DNA from: a virus
DNA: 60,976 bases
Reading direction: 5' to 3' (one strand)
UHGV virus genome: UHGV-1377268
Shown: in pieces, positions 279 to 58,127 of the stretch
How the letters are laid out: each line of letters opens with the position of its first letter
Position numbering within the stretch: position 1 is the first letter of the stretch
Made by a program: the position numbers and the translations under genes
Notes under the pieces: generated by a model
What the model was told of the DNA's origin: nothing
The model's database searches: none
What the model saw: only the letters and a program-made list of their open reading frames with translations

Positions 279-2180
279 ATGAAATTTGATGATTACATTT
301 ACGATCAGGAAACGTATCCCAACTGTTTTCTTTTTGGTGCACGCCATATGGCAAGTGGTCATCGTTATATATTTGAAATTTCACAACGCCGCGATGATCG
401 TGTTCATCTATTTAACTTCTGTGATTATCTGCGTAATAATCACGGACGCGGTGTTGGCTTCAATAGTCTTGGTTTTGACTATCCTATTTTACATAGCATT
501 TTAAATAATATTCAGTATATTACCGTTTTGGATATTTATAATAAAGCTGATAAACTTATAAATGGCACTAAAGAAGAAAAGCGTGCTCAAATGGTCTGGC
601 AAAGCGAATGGTATTTCGCACAATTAGATTTATTTAAAATGCATCATTTTGATTTCAAAGGTAAGCAGAAGCCTAAAAATGATGATGAAGAAAAAATCGG
701 CGGTGTTAGTCTTAAATCGTTAGAGTTTGCGATGCGTATGGATTCTATTGAAGACTTACCATATCCGCCAGGCACATACTTAACCAATGAACAAATAGAT
801 GTTGTCCGCTCATACATGATGCATGACGTTGACGCAACATATGATTTCTATATCAAAAGCGCTGATGACCTTTCATTTCGTGAAGAAATCGGTGCTGAAT
901 ATCAAAGAGATTTTTCAAATACCAGCGACACTAACATAGGTAAAGAATTCTTCATTATTAAATTAGAAGAAGCTGGCATTCCTTGTTATGAGAAAATTTC
1001 AGGCCGTCGTCAGGTTCGTACAACACCAAGACCAGAGATTGTATTAAATAATCTTATTTTCCCTTATGTTCAGTTCGAACGTAAGGAGTTTAACGACGTT
1101 TTAACATTTATTCGCAGTAAAGTTATAAAAGAAACAAAGGGTGTATTTAAAAATCTTACAGCGGATATTGACGGTTTTAAGTTTTTCTTTGGTGTAGGTG
1201 GTATTCATGGTTCAGTAGAATCACGCCATTTACAGAGTAATGCGCAATATGTATTAATTGATGATGATGTGGAATCATATTATCCGAACCTTGCTATTAA
1301 AGGTAGAGTTTACCCGGAACATTTAAGCCCTGTATTCTGTGATGTTTATGACAATCTTTTCCATTACCGCAAACAGTTTAAAAAAGGAACTGGCAAAAAC
1401 AAAATGGTTAAACTGGGTCTGAATGGCACATATGGAAATAGTAACTCAAAATTTAGTCCGTTCTACGATCCTAATTTTACAATGACTATCACACTGAATG
1501 GTCAATTTTTACTTTGTATGTTAGCTGAACAGTTAGTAAAAATTCCCGGACTAATGCTTGTACAGGCTAATACAGACGGTATCACTTATTATGTGCCTCG
1601 GGTGTTTTTACCACAGGTTAACGCAATTCGTGAATGGTGGATGAATCTTACTAAACTTACCCTGGAACAAAACGAATACTCTGATATGTGGATACGTGAT
1701 GTTAACTCATATATAGCACGTTATGCGTCAACAGGAGAACTTAAACGTAAAGGCGCATATGCCTATGGTAAGGATTTGCGATGGGAACAGAATTTCAGCG
1801 GTCAGGTTATCGCAAAAGCTGCGGAAGCTGCACTGGTGTATGGGAAAAACATTAATGACTTTATAACATCACATGAAGACGTTCATGATTTTATGATGCT
1901 TGCCCGTGCTAACCGTAATGCTGAATTGTTTTTCGGTGAACGTAAAGTTCAAAATACAAGTCGTTATTATGTCAGCACCGATGGTGAACCGATCACAAAA
2001 TTTTTACCACCAACTGCAGCACAGCTCAAGAAAGACCCAAATGCTGGTAAACGTGCTGTTGCTATCTGCAAAGGGTGGACAGTAACAGAGTGTAACAATA
2101 TGCAGCGCTTCAACCGGGCAACGCTGAACTATGAGTTTTACATTAAAGAGGCTGAAAAGCTGGTTGCGCCGTTACGGTAA
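279..2180 (+). CDS. DNA polymerase, family A-like polymerase domain only (no exonuclease domains)
   Basis: 633 aa; motif-A-like LIDDDVESYYPN, motif-B-like KxxxNGTYGNSN, motif-C-like LVQANTDGI; sits in a DUF2800 / SSB / polymerase cluster. Confidence 0.7.
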   Translation: MKFDDYIYDQETYPNCFLFGARHMASGHRYIFEISQRRDDRVHLFNFCDYLRNNHGRGVGFNSLGFDYPILHSILNNIQYITVLDIYNKADKLINGTKEEKRAQMVWQSEWYFAQLDLFKMHHFDFKGKQKPKNDDEEKIGGVSLKSLEFAMRMDSIEDLPYPPGTYLTNEQIDVVRSYMMHDVDATYDFYIKSADDLSFREEIGAEYQRDFSNTSDTNIGKEFFIIKLEEAGIPCYEKISGRRQVRTTPRPEIVLNNLIFPYVQFERKEFNDVLTFIRSKVIKETKGVFKNLTADIDGFKFFFGVGGIHGSVESRHLQSNAQYVLIDDDVESYYPNLAIKGRVYPEHLSPVFCDVYDNLFHYRKQFKKGTGKNKMVKLGLNGTYGNSNSKFSPFYDPNFTMTITLNGQFLLCMLAEQLVKIPGLMLVQANTDGITYYVPRVFLPQVNAIREWWMNLTKLTLEQNEYSDMWIRDVNSYIARYASTGELKRKGAYAYGKDLRWEQNFSGQVIAKAAEAALVYGKNINDFITSHEDVHDFMMLARANRNAELFFGERKVQNTSRYYVSTDGEPITKFLPPTAAQLKKDPNAGKRAVAICKGWTVTECNNMQRFNRATLNYEFYIKEAEKLVAPLR

Positions 2181-3061: not shown

Positions 3062-3408
3062 AACTCTGCTATATTGCCGGGCCTTACCGCGCTGAGTGTG
3101 CGCTTAAAACATCCCGTAACGTGTCCCGTGCTGAACAAATGGGTAAACGTCTGACGTTAGAGCGTCCTGAATGGTTCCCGGTAATCCCACACAAGAACAC
3201 CGAACTTTGGGACTTCGACGGCGGGTTACGTAATATCCAGCCTGAATACTATCTGTCAGGTACACTCGAAGTTATGCGCCGCTGTGATGCTGTTCTGGTG
3301 CTTCCTGATTATCGTCGTTCGTCTGGTACACTGGCAGAAATTGCAGAGGCTGAACGGCTGGGTATCCCCGTTTATTACAGCGTGGAGAGTGTGCCAGATG
3401 GTGATTAA
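3058..3408 (+). CDS. DUF4406 / nucleoside 2-deoxyribosyltransferase-like protein
   Basis: N-terminal MKLCYIAGPY.. and overall pattern fit the deoxyribosyltransferase-like fold family; start overlaps the upstream stop. Confidence 0.45.
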   Translation: MKLCYIAGPYRAECALKTSRNVSRAEQMGKRLTLERPEWFPVIPHKNTELWDFDGGLRNIQPEYYLSGTLEVMRRCDAVLVLPDYRRSSGTLAEIAEAERLGIPVYYSVESVPDGD

Positions 3409-4480
3409 CATGGAATGCCTGATCGGTATGCGTATGATGCTGGCTGATAATAGTATCGATGCAGTCGTGACGGATCCGCCTTATGGACTCAGTAAACAAC
3501 CTGATATGAACGAAGTTTTACGCCACTGGTTAAACGGTGACGATTATGTTCATACAGGCGGTGGTTTCATGGGTAAAACCTGGGATAGTTTTGTTCCGGG
3601 TCCGTCAGTCTGGAAAGAAGTTTTCCGCGTCCTGAAACCCGGTGGTCATCTGCTGGCGTTTTTCGGAACACGTACCTATGACCTGGGAACACTGGCGATC
3701 CGTTTAGCAGGATTTGAAATCCGCGATCAAATTGACTGGGTTTATGGTTCCGGTTTCCCTAAGTCACTGAATGTGAGTAAGGCCACGGACGATGAACAGT
3801 GGCAAGGATGGGGAACAGCTTTGAAACCTGCTCACGAGCCAATTTGCGTTGCACGTAAACCACTGGCAGGAACTGTTGCTGAAAACGTTCTGCAGTTCGG
3901 TACGGGCGGGATGAATATTGATGACTGTCGGGTTGGCGATGAAGTTCGTTTTAACCCGCCTGCTTTATTACCAGCAGGCGGTAATAGTCTAAATATGTCT
4001 GCTGTTGGTATGCCGGAAAATGTAGATGGTAATACTGTTAGTGGCCGCTGGCCCGCAAACTTCATTCATGATGGTTCAGATGAAGTAATAAACCTGTTGC
4101 CCGGTGGTTCTGAACGTTATTTCTATTGCGCTAAAGCGAGCAAGTCAGACCGTGATGAAGGTGTGATGTTGGCGATGGTAACGGGTGCGGAAATGACCGG
4201 GCGTGAACCTGATACTGACGGGTTAAACAGCCCGCGTGCGGGTGCTGGGCGTACATCTGGCGCACGTAATAACCATCCTACGGTGAAACCTACAGCACTG
4301 ATGCAATGGCTTGTGCGTCTTGTTACACCACCTGGTGGTAAAGTTCTGGATCCGTTCACGGGTAGCGGTTCAACTGGTAAAGCCTGTGCAATTGAAGGTT
4401 TTGATTTTATCGGTTTCGAAATGGATCCACATTATTGTGAAATAGCTAAACAGAGGATTGCTTATGTCCACAATCGTTGA
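3398..4480 (+). CDS. DNA methyltransferase, beta-class N6-adenine/N4-cytosine
   Basis: Catalytic motif IV VVTDPPYG near the N-terminus and AdoMet motif I DPFTGSGSTG near the C-terminus (beta permutation). Confidence 0.8.
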   Translation: MVINMECLIGMRMMLADNSIDAVVTDPPYGLSKQPDMNEVLRHWLNGDDYVHTGGGFMGKTWDSFVPGPSVWKEVFRVLKPGGHLLAFFGTRTYDLGTLAIRLAGFEIRDQIDWVYGSGFPKSLNVSKATDDEQWQGWGTALKPAHEPICVARKPLAGTVAENVLQFGTGGMNIDDCRVGDEVRFNPPALLPAGGNSLNMSAVGMPENVDGNTVSGRWPANFIHDGSDEVINLLPGGSERYFYCAKASKSDRDEGVMLAMVTGAEMTGREPDTDGLNSPRAGAGRTSGARNNHPTVKPTALMQWLVRLVTPPGGKVLDPFTGSGSTGKACAIEGFDFIGFEMDPHYCEIAKQRIAYVHNR

Positions 4481-20387: not shown

Positions 20388-20475
20388 TGGCGGATAGTAC
20401 AGGATTCGAACCTGTGAACCGTTTCCGGTTTATCGGTTAGCAACCGACCGCTTTCGGCCTCTCAGCCAACTATCC
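20388..20475 (-). tRNA. tRNA-Ser (anticodon GCU), type II with long variable arm, CCA encoded
   Basis: GGATAGT/ACTATCC acceptor stem, anticodon loop UUGCUAA, T-arm ACAGG-TTCGAAT-CCTGT, 3' GCCA. Confidence 0.8.
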
Positions 20476-27960: not shown

Positions 27961-28212
27961 TCACAGGTTAATCATACGTTGACCAACTTCACGATCGGTT
28001 GCGATCAGAAGGCGCTGGAGTTTGGCAACGTAACCAGATGGGAAAGGTTGAGAAAGAACAACATCAAGCATTTTAATCGTGTTCGGCATTGTCATTCGTT
28101 GCTTCAACGCCTGTGCACAACGTTTCAATGCTGTATTTGGTTTATCTTTATTCATCGCAATACACAACTGCAATGTTACAACTATATCGATAAACTCATG
28201 TACACCGATCAC
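27961..28212 (-). CDS. hypothetical protein
   Basis: 83 aa ORF in the minus-strand block between the AP2-domain and head morphogenesis genes. Confidence 0.35.
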   Translation of the reverse strand: MIGVHEFIDIVVTLQLCIAMNKDKPNTALKRCAQALKQRMTMPNTIKMLDVVLSQPFPSGYVAKLQRLLIATDREVGQRMINL

Positions 28213-28261
28213 TTTCGGATGATCTGCAGGATATAGCGGTTATCCTGCAGAACGTTCTAAA

Positions 28262-28414
28262 TTATGACTGAAATTCACGTTTAGTCACCCCTTGCAAACG
28301 GTTCTTCACTTCCCTGATCTGTTCTTCCAGGTGTTCTACTGCTGCTAATGCACGTTCATAATCCAGTTCCAGATCGCGAAGTAATTCAGAATCTGAGCGC
28401 TTTTGTCCGACCAT
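28262..28414 (-). CDS. hypothetical small coiled-coil protein
   Basis: 50 aa ORF below the ORF-track cutoff; a perfect 10-bp-stem hairpin lies immediately downstream (28222-28248). Confidence 0.25.
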   Translation of the reverse strand: MVGQKRSDSELLRDLELDYERALAAVEHLEEQIREVKNRLQGVTKREFQS

Positions 28415-35942: not shown

Positions 35943-36647
35943 TTAAGGCGTCGGAACAAGCTGTTCAGCAATCAACAGCACCTGTGTAGCAGTAAACGCT
36001 GCACCGTTACTGACGATCGTCAACTCTGTACCGTTTGTTGCAATATTCCCATCCTGGTCGATACTCAGGAACGTTCTGAACGATACATTATCACTGGTCA
36101 CGCTGCTATCTCGTGAATAAATCAGTGTGTTACCTGTTGTACCGACAAAATTCAGGGTCATGCTGCGGTTTTCGGTTGACCCTGCCCACGAAGCAATAAG
36201 GTTAAGTTTAAAATTAACCGTCATGTTCTGGTTGAATACGTGCAGTTTGTTATCAGTGGTGTTGAAGAATGGCGCTAACGTACCACCGCTTGGGGTGAGT
36301 GCTTTCAGTGCGTTAATCAGGTCGATCGGCGATCCGGTTGGAATAACCAGTGAGATACCCGACTAGGTCACCTCTGACTTCTGGCGCATGTAAGATGCAC
36401 CCTGTAGACTATCCAGAAAATCCTGTTCACTTCCTGTGTTACCCTGCTGTAGCCAGATATCATAAGCGCTTGCCCCGCTGGTAATATCAATATCGCTGAC
36501 ATACTGGAAAAAACGTACCGGGTTATGGCTCTCACCCGGTAAAACTGTTGTTGTACCGTAAAGAAATTTACCATCACTCAATGCATCATTGATTTTGGTC
36601 AATAAATCGTCACTGGTTTCACTACTCAAGAGCGTTAGCGTGGTCAT
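35943..36647 (-). CDS. tail-fiber-motif protein: 94-aa ORF, in-frame UAG (36363-36365), then 46 open codons running into the 93-aa ORF (possible readthrough product)
   Basis: Both ORF-track ORFs (36363..36647 and 35943..36224) share one frame; only the TAG separates them; there is no SD before the downstream ATG; the N-part carries the fiber motif SAYDIWLQQGNTGSEQDFLDSLQG. Confidence 0.4.
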
Positions 36648-55256: not shown

Positions 55257-55442
55257 CTACGCTCCGAACTGACGTTCAGCAGCCATGAGTTTTACCAGGT
55301 TGATCGCTGAATGACCTGTGAGAAGATTACGTTTAATGTGGATCTCACTTACGTTCATACGTTTAGCAACGTTTTCAATCCCGTGAGTATCGATCAGTTT
55401 TTGCAGACGGTTTACGCGTTCGTTATTCATTCTTTCATCCAT
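55257..55442 (-). CDS. small HTH DNA-binding protein
   Basis: Helix-turn-helix-like NVAKRMNVSEIHIKRNL. Confidence 0.4.
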   Translation of the reverse strand: MDERMNNERVNRLQKLIDTHGIENVAKRMNVSEIHIKRNLLTGHSAINLVKLMAAERQFGA

Positions 55443-55918
55443 TGTTCAAACTGTGAGGGATGGGTGATGAAACGAAATTCACCACCTGCGTTAACTACAA
55501 CTGTACCAAAAGTGGCCTGCGCCTGGGCGCGTTTATCACCGGGGGTCATGTGCCAGTTCGGCTCTTTCATTTCAGCCGCGATAAACATACCAATTTTACG
55601 ACCAACATCAGCAGGGGTGATAATCAACGTTTTGATCCCGATATAATCACTGGATTTCATAACATCGTTGATTTTTTTGCTGGTATTACCCAGACCGTAA
55701 CGCACCCACTGGCCTTTTTCGTTTTGTAAAGCGCCGTTATTGTTTCGCCAGAGGCGTTGACCAGCACGGGCCGCGATCAGTTCGCATTCTTTAGACGTTG
55801 CTGATTCACTTTTACCATCTTCATGCGGTTTTCCGTCCGGCTGAAAAAGGCCGTATAACTCATACAGCGCCATCTGGCTGATACCGTGACGTTTCGCCCA
55901 CTCTTCAAGAGGTGTCAT
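55427..55918 (-). CDS. VRR-NUC domain nuclease
   Basis: ..DYIGIKTLIITPADVGRKIGMFIAAEMKE.. carries the PD-(D/E)XK VRR-NUC signature. Confidence 0.6.
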   Translation of the reverse strand: MTPLEEWAKRHGISQMALYELYGLFQPDGKPHEDGKSESATSKECELIAARAGQRLWRNNNGALQNEKGQWVRYGLGNTSKKINDVMKSSDYIGIKTLIITPADVGRKIGMFIAAEMKEPNWHMTPGDKRAQAQATFGTVVVNAGGEFRFITHPSQFEQWMKE

Positions 55919-56421
55919 AAGTGTTTAGTCCCGCTGGTGAGATATTTGATCTGATGAAGGCAATCATCCAGCGCGTTATGAAAAACGCCATCACGGGTAA
56001 ACAGTTTAGTATTGATACCCAGCAAATCCACCGCCGTGCGAACATCACGAACGTTCCAGAATTTCCACGGGCAGCGGATACCTACTGCATCAAATCATGC
56101 TTCTAAAATGGTGATATCAAATACAGACCCGTTACCCCAGGGAAGCGCATCAGAACGAATGAATTTTGCAAAACGTTGTGCTACTTCACGTGGGTCATCA
56201 GTCCCGCCAAACGCGTCAGTACGCGCCTGTTCAGACTGCTGCGACCACCAACGCATTGTATCAGCATCAGCATTACCGTATGACAACGCGCTAAAACCCA
56301 TTGATGCGTAAAACTGTTCACCGATATTACCTTTGCGATTGAAATATACAGCACCAATGGAAAGCACCGCACAACCGGGTTTCGTGCCACATGTTTCAAT
56401 ATCAATCATCAAATCACGCAT
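55915..56421 (-). CDS. DnaQ-like DEDDh 3'-5' exonuclease interrupted by an in-frame UGA (56095-56097)
   Basis: Exo I MIDIETCG and Exo II GNGSVFDITIL lie before the stop; Exo III FHNALDDCLHQIKY lies in the same frame after it; the C-part has no start codon and ends in an ATGA overlap with the VRR-NUC gene. Confidence 0.6.
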
Positions 56422-56437
56422 GTGTTTACCTTATATT

Positions 56438-56470
56438 TAAAATAATTCTAAACAGATTACCATTAAATCA
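56438..56470 (+). promoter_or_regulatory. degenerate relic of the promoter family (aaaataattcTAAACagattaccat), wrong orientation
   Basis: Matches the UP element and downstream box but lacks the TTGAC -35. Confidence 0.3.
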
Positions 56471-58127
56471 TAGTTCCTGCAACCCGTGCTGACAACTCGT
56501 TTGCTTCCCGCGTGTGTAATGCCTGCGCCGTAAGTACATCAACGCCGAAAACCTGATAAAACATACGATAAGCATCATCAGGTGATACGCCTTTATCACG
56601 CTGTAACCCAGCCCATGTGGTTATCATGGAACGTAGTTTACGCTGTGCATCGTTCATAGCCTGAATATTTTTCATCGCGCTGTAAGCTGCAACAGCAGGT
56701 GCGCCAGCGTTTAACATCTGGTCTTTAACTGCTGCCGGGTCACGGTCGATAATAACCACTGCGCGGCGCAGTTCTTCGAGTTCTTCAGCGGTCAGTTCAC
56801 GTAAATTACCCTCAACGCGATCCGGTCCTGAACGTAGCGCTTTTTCCGGTACATGACCGCAGTAAGGGCAAGCAGCAAGCCCTGCAGGATAAGGTTTCAG
56901 ACACGGTTCAATACCCTTTACTGCATCCCCTTTGTTTGTACAGGTGGTATTACTGGATCCGCCGCTGGATGATTTACGATCGCGGTCGTCTAACGACCAG
57001 TTGTAATGTTGATCGGGTAACGGAAAACCACGGGCAATAAAACGACGGACGTTACCCACTTTATCAATAATGAGTGCTTTTTTACCGGGGATATAGCGTA
57101 ACGGGCGTCCCATTTGTTGGATAAACAGTGAATAGGATTCAGTGGGTCTATCCATCACGGCGCATTCCATTGCCGGACAGTCATAACCCTCGCCGAACAG
57201 ATCCGCGTTGCACATAATCAGGGTTTTGCGTTTTTCGAAACGGTCCAGAATATCGGCGCGTTCCTGATCGGTATTACGCGAACTGATTGCCTCAGCAGGA
57301 ATACCCGCGTCCCTGAATTCCTGTGCCAGTGTTATAGCCGCGTCAACATCAACGGTGAAAACCACCGTCAGCATACCGTCGGCGTACATTTTCCAGGTAT
57401 TTACTGTATCACCAACGATGGTTGAATCTTCCATTGCCTTTTTCAACGCAGATGGCTTGTAATCCCCCGTAGTGCTGGAAATCATATCCGCTGTCAGGTC
57501 AATATCTGTTTCAGCCATAATCAGGCGATAATCGGCCAGGTGCTGCTGGTTGATTAATTCACGCATTGCCGGACCAATCACCATTGCATCAGCATAGCCA
57601 GACGCATGACGTCCAAGCCCTTTACCATCGGCACGGATCGGTGATGCAGTTACACCTAATCCTAAAGATTTTGGGAAAAGTTCACGACAGGTTCCCCACA
57701 TGGTGCCGCGTACCAGATGATGGGCTTCATCACAAAAAACACGGGTTACGCTATCATGCCATCGTTCGTATTTTTTTGTTCGCAGCGTGGGCGCACTGGC
57801 AATAACGATATCTGCGCCGGGTGCATAGGTACTGTAACCCAGCTTTTTCATCTGCTGCCCCGTGGCAAACTTAATAGCGTCTTTTTGCGCAATAAAACGG
57901 AGTGGTAATCCCTGTGCGGCAATCGCCATCGCTATCTGACTGACCAGTTCCTTACGGTGCGCCTGGATAACTTTGATCCCGTCAACTTTCACCAGTTCAG
58001 CCATCGTTCGCGTTTTACCGCTCCCGGTAGGCATGACCAGGATCACATCTTTCTTACCAGCGTCCCACTGCGCATTCACGCCGTTAACGGCGTCCTGCTG
58101 GTAGTAACGTAATGGTTGTTGACTCAC
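56463..58127 (-). CDS. SF2 DEAD/DEAH-box helicase
   Basis: Walker A MPTGSGKT, DEAH motif (CDEAHH), helicase C region; C-terminal CPYCGH Zn motif. Confidence 0.7.
   Translation of the reverse strand: MSQQPLRYYQQDAVNGVNAQWDAGKKDVILVMPTGSGKTRTMAELVKVDGIKVIQAHRKELVSQIAMAIAAQGLPLRFIAQKDAIKFATGQQMKKLGYSTYAPGADIVIASAPTLRTKKYERWHDSVTRVFCDEAHHLVRGTMWGTCRELFPKSLGLGVTASPIRADGKGLGRHASGYADAMVIGPAMRELINQQHLADYRLIMAETDIDLTADMISSTTGDYKPSALKKAMEDSTIVGDTVNTWKMYADGMLTVVFTVDVDAAITLAQEFRDAGIPAEAISSRNTDQERADILDRFEKRKTLIMCNADLFGEGYDCPAMECAVMDRPTESYSLFIQQMGRPLRYIPGKKALIIDKVGNVRRFIARGFPLPDQHYNWSLDDRDRKSSSGGSSNTTCTNKGDAVKGIEPCLKPYPAGLAACPYCGHVPEKALRSGPDRVEGNLRELTAEELEELRRAVVIIDRDPAAVKDQMLNAGAPAVAAYSAMKNIQAMNDAQRKLRSMITTWAGLQRDKGVSPDDAYRMFYQVFGVDVLTAQALHTREANELSARVAGTMI

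What the first reader, a model, noticed from the sequence alone, without database searches (positions are those of the whole stretch)
55915..56421. Proofreading-type DnaQ exonuclease split by an in-frame UGA
The 108-aa ORF 56095..56421 contains DEDD motifs Exo I (DIET) and Exo II (GNGSVFDITIL) and stops at TGA 56095-56097. Fifty-eight more codons follow in the same frame with no start codon and no SD. They encode the essential Exo III motif (FHNALDDCLHQIKY, H-x4-D) and end in an ATGA overlap with the VRR-NUC gene. The polymerase at 279..2180 has no exonuclease domain of its own, so this enzyme is plausibly its trans-acting proofreader. Either it is a fresh nonsense mutation or sequencing error, or UGA is read through (E. 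coli tolerates appreciable UGA leak), giving a tunable level of proofreading.
Basis: seen in the sequence. Interest (0 to 1): 0.75.

Follow-up and report, generated by a model that had tools for sequence, protein, structure and literature searches.

The report
Nonsense-mutated accessory exonuclease in gut phage
A phage from human gut metagenomes carries a genuine point mutation that turns a tryptophan codon into a stop in a non-essential DNA/RNA-trimming enzyme; this is an ordinary broken or leaky gene, not a designed read-through switch for polymerase proofreading.

Summary
Window 55915-56421 (- strand) is a 168-codon exonuclease gene interrupted at codon 109 by TGA (56095-56097). All 16 homologs examined have TGG (Trp) there, so it is a single G>A transition.

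It is not a sequencing error. The exact 108-aa truncated product is on record on 23 contigs, and the ten fetched, from ten separate assemblies, are 99.96-100% identical to the window, so this is one clonal strain.

- The protein is a DexA/Rv2179c-like DEDDh exonuclease (PF16473, 161 bits), not a DnaQ proofreader.
- The polymerase at 279-2180 is a family-B enzyme with its own invariant DEDDy exonuclease motifs.
- Nothing supports programmed read-through. The stop is not conserved, the TGA-T context favours termination, there is no conserved downstream structure and no suppressor tRNA, and TGA ends 30 of 59 conserved genes.

Best reading: a tolerated loss-of-function (at most leaky) allele of an accessory gene. 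Two other accessory genes in the same genome are also broken. Any background read-through by Trp-tRNA would restore the wild-type protein at roughly a percent or less. Low interest.

The parts
55915..56421 (-). Whole exonuclease gene (168 codons plus terminal TGA). It is the ortholog of Salmonella phage 9NA gp71 'exonuclease' and belongs to the PF16473 Rv2179c/DexA-like DEDDh 3'-5' exonuclease family.
   Evidence: sequence and translation; eight GenBank relatives annotate an uninterrupted 507-nt CDS. PF16473 at E=3.3e-47, 160.9 bits, for the TGG-repaired protein; phrog_255 exonuclease. T4 DexA (8KEL/8KEN) is the nearest solved structure.
56095..56421 (-). The 108-aa product actually encoded. 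It retains Exo I (D7, E9) and Exo II (D102) but lacks Exo III. It also carries the lineage-private changes D28N and V53A.
   Evidence: ORF; the fragment covers only positions 2-116 of the 177-position PF16473 model; private substitutions; this exact 108-aa sequence is on 23 contigs in public assemblies.
56095..56097 (-). Premature opal codon TGA at codon 109. The ancestral codon is TGG (Trp109). The change is a G>A transition at 56095 on the coding strand (C>T on the + strand). The next base is T.
   Evidence: 8 of 8 relatives have TGG; 16 of 16 homologous loci have TGG and none TGA. W109 is invariant in 15 relatives.
55915..56094 (-). C-terminal 59 codons (110-168) plus stop, now untranslated except by read-through. 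They hold catalytic H148 (55978-55980) and D153 (55963-55965). The stretch is still intact, with no frameshift or further stop.
   Evidence: translation. H148 and D153 align with the H-x4-D of T4 DexA; dN/dS is about 0.06-0.08 for codons 110-168 among intact relatives; only one private, synonymous change downstream (A112).
55427..55918 (-). Downstream 163-aa nuclease gene whose ATG overlaps the exonuclease's natural stop (ATGA). It may be affected by loss of translational coupling.
   Evidence: ORF; phrog_93 endonuclease, E=3e-19; no Pfam family, so VRR-NUC is not confirmed; the same 4-nt overlap is annotated in all relatives.
279..2180 (+). Family-B DNA polymerase (633 aa) with its own N-terminal DEDDy 3'-5' exonuclease domain.
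   Evidence: phrog_1252 DNA polymerase, E=7e-195. D9, E11, N62, D67, Y179 and D183 are among only 39 invariant columns in 45 representatives at 33% mean column identity; 12 of 45 members match PF10108 DNA_pol_B_exo2 (best E=5.4e-6); all 62 PDB hits are family-B polymerases (best E=5.4e-7), with weak N-terminal matches to archaeal PolB and to RB69 gp43 residues 192-330.

Best explanation
This is a genuine, recently arisen nonsense allele (Trp109 TGG>TGA) of an accessory DexA/Rv2179c-like DEDDh 3'-5' exonuclease. It is fixed in one clonal 9NA-like, probably Klebsiella-infecting, phage strain recovered repeatedly from human gut metagenomes.

Ribosomes terminate at codon 109 and release a 108-aa fragment. 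The fragment lacks the general-base His148 and the metal ligand Asp153, so it should be catalytically dead. The phage tolerates this because the enzyme is dispensable under its growth conditions, as T4 DexA is, and because the polymerase proofreads with its own domain.

Background near-cognate decoding of UGA by Trp-tRNA would, by coincidence, rebuild the exact wild-type protein. The amount would be of the order of a percent or less. That makes the allele at most a leaky hypomorph, not a programmed recoding device.

Shown: the mutation, its reality in DNA, the family assignment, the missing catalytic residues, and the polymerase's own exonuclease motifs. Inferred: loss of activity, dispensability, and the read-through level.
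For: Mutation and polarity: the window has TGA where 16 of 16 homologs have TGG.

Real DNA: the exact 108-aa product is on 23 contigs, listed in 26 blocks of the collection. The ten fetched loci are 99.96-100% identical to the window, and at least one is from PRJNA217052 (FijiCOMP). The repaired 168-aa sequence is absent from about 15 billion proteins.

Family: PF16473 at 160.9 bits against PF00929 at 30.2 bits. The nearest structure is T4 DexA, which scavenges host DNA, aids intron homing and is needed only in optA hosts.

Loss of the catalytic part: the fragment covers model positions 2-116 of 177, and H148/D153 lie downstream.

Relaxed constraint on this branch: the private changes are D28N (D is invariant in 15 relatives), V53A and W109*, against 2 synonymous changes. 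Intact relatives show dN/dS of about 0.06. My hand binomial estimate that 3 or more of 5 changes alter the protein under that constraint is about 0.03.

Genome context: two further accessory genes are also broken, while no gene shared with VLCpiS10a is frameshifted.

Against recoding: TGA is the normal stop of 30 of 59 conserved genes. The only tRNA is Ser-GCU. The base after the stop is T, which raises termination efficiency in E. coli (PMC11126739). The K-12 leak of about 2% at 37 C partly reflects K-12's weak RF2 (PMC10570021; PMC5373646). The downstream hairpin is not conserved in TGG relatives.
Against: The gene is otherwise universally retained and strongly constrained in the family, so complete loss might be expected to cost fitness.

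The 59 downstream codons are still perfectly intact, with only one synonymous private change. That is equally what a functional read-through product would look like, although the branch is too short to discriminate.

UGA>Trp read-through would give authentic enzyme, and small amounts of a nuclease may be enough.

No expression or activity data exist. The host and its RF2 allele are unknown. How many distinct people or samples the ten assemblies represent is not established.
Confidence: 0.8

Rival explanations
1. Adaptive inactivation. Losing the exonuclease (and the other two broken accessory genes) was selected, for example because the protein is sensed or exploited by a host defence system or is costly in this host. 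On this view the null allele swept with the clone.
For: The allele is fixed in a strain seen in many assemblies. Three accessory genes are knocked out in one genome. The DexA paper (PMC12153337) reports that bacteria use DexA-like exonucleases in defence, which places this family in phage-host conflict.
Against: There is no direct evidence of selection, and hitch-hiking of neutral or mildly deleterious nulls in a clonal bloom explains the same data. Only one lineage shows the allele, with no recurrence among 16 homologs. The 444 private substitutions show an ordinary spectrum.
Confidence: 0.1
2. Functional leaky stop. UGA is read through by Trp-tRNA often enough to supply a deliberately low, condition-dependent dose of full-length exonuclease, and the allele is maintained for that reason.
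For: UGA is the leakiest stop in E. coli K-12, about 2-4% in a reporter, and is replaced almost always by Trp, which here restores the wild type. The downstream codons are intact. The window has a stronger local hairpin after the stop (z=-2.7).
Against: The stop is not conserved in any of 16 homologs. T after the stop favours termination. The K-12 leak is partly a K-12 RF2 defect. The hairpin is absent in TGG relatives (z from -1.4 to +1.0), and its 3' arm sequence is also present in TGG-bearing VLCpiS10a and phi_KPN_H2. There is no suppressor tRNA. D28N at an invariant site suggests decay rather than maintenance.
Confidence: 0.06
3. Sequencing or assembly error. The true genome has TGG.
For: It is a single-base difference from all relatives, and several of the supporting contigs have only 2.5-3.8x coverage.
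Against: The same base is called in ten separate assemblies from three repositories with different assemblers, including two contigs of about 61 kb. No gene shared with VLCpiS10a has a frameshift. The repaired protein is not on record anywhere.
Confidence: 0.03
4. Alternative decoding or a split enzyme. Either TGA is decoded as Trp or selenocysteine in this system, or the C-terminal piece is made separately from the in-frame GTG at codon 131 and reassembles with the N-terminal fragment.
For: An in-frame GTG exists at 56029-56031, and a hairpin is predicted downstream of the TGA.
Against: TGA terminates 30 of 59 conserved genes, including this one. The hairpin is not conserved, and by my own judgement from recalled SECIS features it is not SECIS-like. 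No Shine-Dalgarno precedes the GTG (read directly). A 38-aa peptide would have to complement a fold cut through its core, which is unprecedented for this family to my knowledge.
Confidence: 0.01

Closest known systems
Salmonella phage 9NA gp71 'exonuclease' (YP_009101241.1) and its orthologs in Klebsiella phages Kpn BU9, VLCpiS10a, KP13-27 and Carvaje, and in Sashavirus
   Same: Same gene in the same position (helicase, exonuclease, nuclease, small ORF, primase), the same 507-nt length, and the same ATGA overlap with the next gene. Nucleotide identity is 74-98%.
   Different: All of them are uninterrupted with TGG at codon 109. The window has TGA plus the private D28N and V53A changes.
Bacteriophage T4 DexA (PDB 8KEL/8KEN)
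   Same: It is the nearest solved structure by sequence (E=7.5e-7, whole sequence). The N-terminal DxE region aligns, and a weaker second stretch aligns the H-x4-D. It is a stand-alone phage DEDDh 3'-5' exonuclease that is dispensable except in special hosts, and it is separate from the polymerase's proofreading domain (PMC12153337).
   Different: DexA is 227 aa and only distantly similar. Its 5hmC discrimination and its dimer-tetramer switch are not known to apply here. The substrate (DNA or RNA) of the 9NA-type enzyme is untested.
Mycobacterium tuberculosis Rv2179c, which gives its name to Pfam PF16473 (3'-5' exoribonuclease)
   Same: The repaired protein matches the family model nearly end to end (residues 3-162 against model positions 2-174 of 177; 160.9 bits).
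   Different: Rv2179c is a cellular protein. That it is an RNA exonuclease rests on the Pfam description and my own recollection of the 2014 report. The window's copy is truncated after model position 116.
E. coli DnaQ (epsilon) and other trans-acting proofreading subunits
   Same: Same DEDDh superfamily and motif logic. There is a weak PF00929 match (30.2 bits).
   Different: The match is far weaker than to PF16473. The cognate polymerase here is a family-B enzyme with its own DEDDy domain, so no trans proofreader is needed. No association with the polymerase is indicated.
Programmed UGA read-through in phage Qbeta (coat to A1 protein) and classical leaky opal mutants
   Same: UGA would be decoded by Trp-tRNA in an enterobacterial host (the Qbeta example is from my own knowledge).
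   Different: In Qbeta the stop and the extension are conserved and required. Here the stop is unique to one clone, and the context (TGA-T) is the termination-favouring one.

Membership tests
PF16473 Rv2179c/DexA-like DEDDh 3'-5' exonuclease | Significant full-length match to the family model, above the curated cut-off | tested here: met
the 108-aa fragment alone still scores 102.6 bits.
PF16473 Rv2179c/DexA-like DEDDh 3'-5' exonuclease | All five DEDDh catalytic residues (D, E, D, H, D) encoded in order | tested here: met
   D7, E9, D102, H148 and D153 are present in the conceptual 168-aa reading. H148 and D153 align with the H-x4-D of T4 DexA. All are invariant in 15 relatives.
PF16473 Rv2179c/DexA-like DEDDh 3'-5' exonuclease | A single uninterrupted ORF that delivers all catalytic residues in one polypeptide, i.e. 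a functional member | tested here: not met
   TGA at codon 109 separates D7/E9/D102 from H148/D153. It is therefore a disrupted member (pseudogene or hypomorph) of the family.
PF16473 Rv2179c/DexA-like DEDDh 3'-5' exonuclease | 3'-5' exonuclease activity on RNA or DNA | not testable with these tools
   Needs purified full-length and truncated proteins.
DnaQ-type trans-acting proofreading exonuclease | Best family match is the DnaQ/RNase T-type exonuclease model | tested here: not met
   PF00929 scores only 30.2 bits against 160.9 bits for PF16473; phrog_192 'DNA polymerase exonuclease subunit' scores only 24 bits over residues 6-38.
DnaQ-type trans-acting proofreading exonuclease | The partner replicative polymerase lacks an intrinsic 3'-5' exonuclease | tested here: not met
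   the polymerase has invariant D9-x-E11, N62-x3-F-D67 and Y179-x3-D183; 12 of 45 family members match PF10108 DNA_pol_B_exo2; the profile hits only family-B polymerases, with weak N-terminal matches including RB69 gp43 residues 192-330.
DnaQ-type trans-acting proofreading exonuclease | Physical or functional association with the polymerase | not testable with these tools
   The gene lies about 5.4 kb from the polymerase across the ends of the window, on the opposite strand, next to the helicase and primase genes. This is not informative.
Programmed stop-codon read-through | The stop codon is conserved among homologs at the recoding site | tested here: not met
   16 of 16 homologous loci have TGG. 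Within the 90% cluster, the 14 other listed members are all 168 aa.
Programmed stop-codon read-through | Leaky stop context or a conserved stimulatory element | tested here: not met
   The context is TGA-T, and T after the stop raises termination efficiency (PMC11126739). The hairpin has z=-2.7 in the window but -1.4 to +1.0 in TGG relatives.
Programmed stop-codon read-through | Purifying selection on the extension after the stop arose | tested here: inconclusive
   There is only one private change (synonymous) in codons 110-168. The sibling contigs show no variation inside the gene. The branch is too short to tell.
Programmed stop-codon read-through | Detectable read-through protein | not testable with these tools
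   Needs a western blot or mass spectrometry of infected cells.
Family-B DNA polymerase with DEDDy exonuclease (for ORF 279-2180) | PolB palm motifs together with Exo I/II/III residues conserved across the family | tested here: met
   invariant D328/D330, Y335-P336, K378/N382/G386 and N431-T-D-G434, plus D9, E11, N62, D67, Y179 and D183; best PDB hit is an archaeal PolB at E=5.4e-7. The structure model was too poor to add anything (pLDDT 53).

The most novel reading that the evidence does not exclude
The opal codon is kept as a self-correcting leaky stop. Because UGA is misread as Trp, the ancestral residue, the phage would make a small, physiology-dependent dose (more in the cold or in starvation) of authentic exonuclease while avoiding the cost or defence-triggering of full expression. 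That would be a naturally evolved hypomorph by read-through in a dsDNA phage.
Probability: 0.06. Interest if true: 0.55.

Novelty: already known. Interest (0 to 1): 0.15.

Why it matters
It matters little. The result documents a natural null, or very leaky, allele of a conserved but evidently dispensable phage exonuclease, circulating in a clonal gut phage alongside two other broken accessory genes.

It has some practical value:
- It flags that this 9NA-type 'exonuclease' is not required for propagation in nature.
- It corrects the idea that these phages' polymerase lacks proofreading.
- It is a reminder that gene callers will annotate the 108-aa stub as a protein.

If the minority read-through reading were true, it would be a rare natural example of dose-setting by an opal codon in a dsDNA phage.

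Tried and rejected
1. **Exact 17-mer scans.** I scanned the viral, metagenome and genome collections with GAAGCATGRTTTRATGC. BLAST filtering rescued 8 extra true homologs, all TGG.

2. **AlphaFold model of the polymerase**. Mean pLDDT was 53 and the N-terminal domain was below 50, so I discarded it and ran no fold search.

3. **Pfam scan of close polymerase homologs**. It was uninformative. Only the deeper 45-member set resolved the family.

4. **Suppressor tRNA.** The only tRNA is Ser-GCU. Rejected.

5. **TGA reassignment.** TGA ends 30 of 59 conserved genes. Rejected.

6. **Read-through or SECIS-type hairpin.** It is predicted in the window only, not in TGG relatives. Rejected as a signal.

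7. **Mutagen or deaminase hypermutation**, which would explain two Trp>stop G>A changes. The genome-wide private spectrum is ordinary: 78% transitions, C>T 87, G>A 108, A>G 85, T>C 65. Rejected.

8. **Promoter and terminator scan around the gene**. Nothing rose above the shuffled expectation.

9. **Naive all-ORF comparison for broken genes**. It was dominated by shadow ORFs. Only three lesions survived inspection.

Full report
**What is there**

On the - strand of the window, an ATG at 56421 opens a reading frame that stops at TGA 56095-56097 after 108 codons. The same frame continues without a further stop for 58 sense codons (the codon after the TGA is 110) to TGA 55915-55917, which overlaps the ATG of the next gene as ATGA. 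The conceptual 168-aa product carries D7/E9 (DIET), D102 (GNGSVFD) and H148-x4-D153 (FHNALDD). The downstream stretch does contain in-frame GTG (codon 131) and TTG (codon 133) codons, though nothing resembling a Shine-Dalgarno precedes them. The Exo III numbering also shifts by one residue.

**What the genome is**

The window is a 9NA-like siphovirus genome. Its closest GenBank relatives are Klebsiella phages Kpn BU9, VLCpiS10a, phi_KPN_H2 and KP13-27, followed by Salmonella phage 9NA and the Sashavirus group. In all eight relatives I fetched, the homologous locus is annotated as one uninterrupted 507-nt gene, usually called 'exonuclease'. It lies between the helicase gene and a nuclease, small-ORF, primase block, with the same 4-nt overlap to the next gene.

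**The lesion**

The nucleotide alignment shows TGG (Trp) in all eight relatives where the window has TGA. After BLAST-filtering the loci pulled in by pattern scans, eight more homologous loci from IMG/VR and metagenomes (one of them the 9NA genome itself) also have TGG, so the count is 16 of 16. The change is a single G>A transition on the coding strand at window 56095.

**Is it a sequencing error? No.**

- The exact 108-aa truncated protein is present in the 15-billion-protein collection on 23 contigs, listed in 26 blocks.
- The sources are JGI metagenome 3300045988 (a 61,133-bp contig), ENA ERZ28566617 (BRIT16-1_SAMN02334148, 61,211 bp), ERZ963794 (SRR2248264, PRJNA217052) and seven ERZ266xxxx assemblies.
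- PRJNA217052 is the Fiji Community Microbiome Project.
- The ten fetched loci are 99.96-100% identical to the window over 2-6 kb, and their three single mismatches lie outside the gene.
- The 'repaired' 168-aa sequence (N28, A53, W109) does not exist anywhere in that collection.

This is therefore one clonal strain in which the TGA is fixed, recovered by several pipelines. I could not establish how many distinct people these assemblies represent.

**What the protein is**

The TGG-repaired protein matches Pfam PF16473 (Rv2179c-like 3'-5' exoribonuclease) nearly end to end at 160.9 bits. The RNase_T/DnaQ-type model PF00929 scores 30.2 bits. PHROG 255 'exonuclease' is the best phage family. The nearest solved structure by sequence is T4 DexA (8KEL/8KEN), and the H-x4-D residues align.

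According to PMC12153337, DexA scavenges host DNA and assists intron homing. It is required only in optA hosts, and it acts alongside, not as, the proofreading domain of T4 polymerase. The gene therefore belongs to the DEDDh superfamily but is not a DnaQ-type proofreader.

**The polymerase premise**

The 633-aa ORF at 279-2180 is a DNA polymerase (PHROG 1252, E=7e-195). Its sequence shows D9-Q-E11, N62-x3-F-D67 and Y179-x3-D183, followed by DxxSxYP, Kx3NGxYG and NTDG. The six exonuclease residues are invariant in 13 homologs at 58-65% identity.

More tellingly, they are among only 39 invariant columns in 45 representatives at 33% mean column identity. Twelve of those 45 match Pfam DNA_pol_B_exo2 (best E=5.4e-6). 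The 45-member profile hits 62 PDB sequences, all family-B polymerases (best E=5.4e-7). Two N-terminal matches are weaker. The profile's GfNnlgfDYp segment aligns locally, below threshold, with archaeal PolB 'YNGDNFDFAYL', and profile positions 38-174 match RB69 gp43 residues 192-330 at E=0.0015. From my own knowledge these are the PolB Exo II motif and the gp43 exonuclease domain.

An AlphaFold model was too poor to use (pLDDT 53). On sequence evidence the polymerase proofreads for itself, which removes the rationale for a trans-acting proofreader.

**Is the stop programmed? Every test argues no.**

- The stop is unique to this clone.
- TGA is the ordinary terminator of 30 of 59 conserved genes in this genome, including this gene's own natural end.
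- The only tRNA is Ser-GCU.
- The base after the stop is T, which increases termination efficiency in E. coli (PMC11126739).
- The often-quoted UGA leak of about 2% at 37 C and 4% at 25 C is a K-12 reporter value (PMC10570021). K-12 carries a reduced-function RF2 (PMC5373646).
- A hairpin is predicted just downstream in the window (z=-2.7). The same segment from four TGG-bearing relatives gives z from -1.4 to +1.0, and the window's 3'-arm sequence is shared with TGG-bearing VLCpiS10a and phi_KPN_H2. It did not evolve with the stop.

**Signs of decay and tolerance**

Among intact relatives both halves of the gene are under strong purifying selection, with dN/dS of about 0.06 for codons 1-108 and 0.06-0.08 for codons 110-168. 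On the window's private branch there are five changes:
- D28N, at a position invariant in all 15 relatives
- V53A
- W109*
- two synonymous changes

By a rough hand binomial, three or more protein-altering changes out of five has a probability of about 0.03 under the family's constraint. This is suggestive of relaxed selection but rests on tiny numbers. The downstream 59 codons carry only one private, synonymous change, so they cannot yet distinguish 'recent pseudogene' from 'still used'.

**The rest of the genome**

Comparing every annotated VLCpiS10a protein, and then all relatives' ORFs, with the window found no frameshifts in shared genes but two more disrupted accessory genes.
- An Sf6-type tail-needle-knob protein (PF16532) is cut by TGG>TAG at codon 95. 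Its 94-aa stub is on 29 public contigs, and the gene is absent from KP13-27.
- A 105-aa gene of unknown function is broken by a 15-bp inversion between two CTGCAG palindromes. The same gene carries a 47-bp deletion in VLCpiS10a.

The lineage's 444 private substitutions (1.3% of 34.4 kb) have an ordinary spectrum, so there is no mutagen or deaminase signature.

**Mechanism proposed**

Translation terminates at codon 109. The 108-aa fragment covers only model positions 2-116 of 177 and lacks His148 and Asp153. From what is established for DEDDh enzymes it should be inactive (inference). The phage survives because the enzyme is accessory, by analogy with DexA, and because proofreading is intrinsic to its PolB.

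Rare near-cognate decoding by Trp-tRNA would regenerate the exact wild-type enzyme, since UGA is replaced almost always by Trp. Given TGA-T and a presumably normal RF2 in a non-K-12 host, I expect this to be about a percent or less (inference). Early termination 174 nt upstream of the ATGA junction may also reduce translational coupling into the downstream nuclease gene (inference, untested).

**Verdict**

The proofreading and tunable-read-through story is not supported. Interest is low.

Noticed in passing
window 35943-36647 (- strand); stop at 36363-36365: A second Trp>stop lesion. The 234-aa gene just downstream of the large terminase is an Sf6-type tail-needle-knob protein (PF16532 at E=1.3e-49; phrog_1030). 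It has TGG>TAG at codon 95, which removes almost the whole knob domain. The 94-aa stub is on 29 public contigs. The intact gene exists in VLCpiS10a and Kpn BU9 but is absent from KP13-27.
   Followed up: yes
window about 27961-28278 (- strand); TAA at 28240-28242: A 15-bp segment flanked by two CTGCAG palindromes is inverted relative to KP13-27, Kpn BU9 and VLCpiS10a (window GATAACCGCTATATC, relatives AATATAGCGGTTATC). The inversion creates an in-frame TAA in a 105-aa gene of unknown function (phrog_6022). VLCpiS10a has a 47-bp deletion in the same gene.
   Followed up: partly
window 279-2180 (+ strand): The polymerase is a mosaic replacement. It is only 57.6% identical to VLCpiS10a's polymerase, while the flanking genes are 95-99% identical. 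The best non-self database relatives are 61-63% identical. Pfam does not recognise this small (about 620-630 aa) PolB family above threshold.
   Followed up: partly
window 3284-4480 (+ strand): The DNA methyltransferase homolog is shorter than in VLCpiS10a (398 aa against 506). It has a conserved N-terminus (95% identity) and a divergent C-terminal part (65% identity), which suggests a swapped domain.
   Followed up: no
loci L036 and L032 (IMG/VR UViGs from JGI metagenome 3300045988): The JGI metagenome that holds the TGA strain (contig Ga0495776_073660) also holds two related phages with an intact TGG exonuclease gene, 97.8% and 74.6% identical in that gene. Intact and broken versions therefore co-occur in one dataset.
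   Followed up: no
window 20388-20475 (- strand): This is the single tRNA gene, tRNA-Ser (GCU). It is also annotated in VLCpiS10a.
   Followed up: no
window 56467-56495 (- strand): A sigma-70-like site (TTGTCA, 17-nt spacer, TATGAT; 10 of 12 matches) lies inside the 3' end of the helicase gene, just upstream of the exonuclease start. The number of such sites in the region is not above the shuffled expectation.
   Followed up: no
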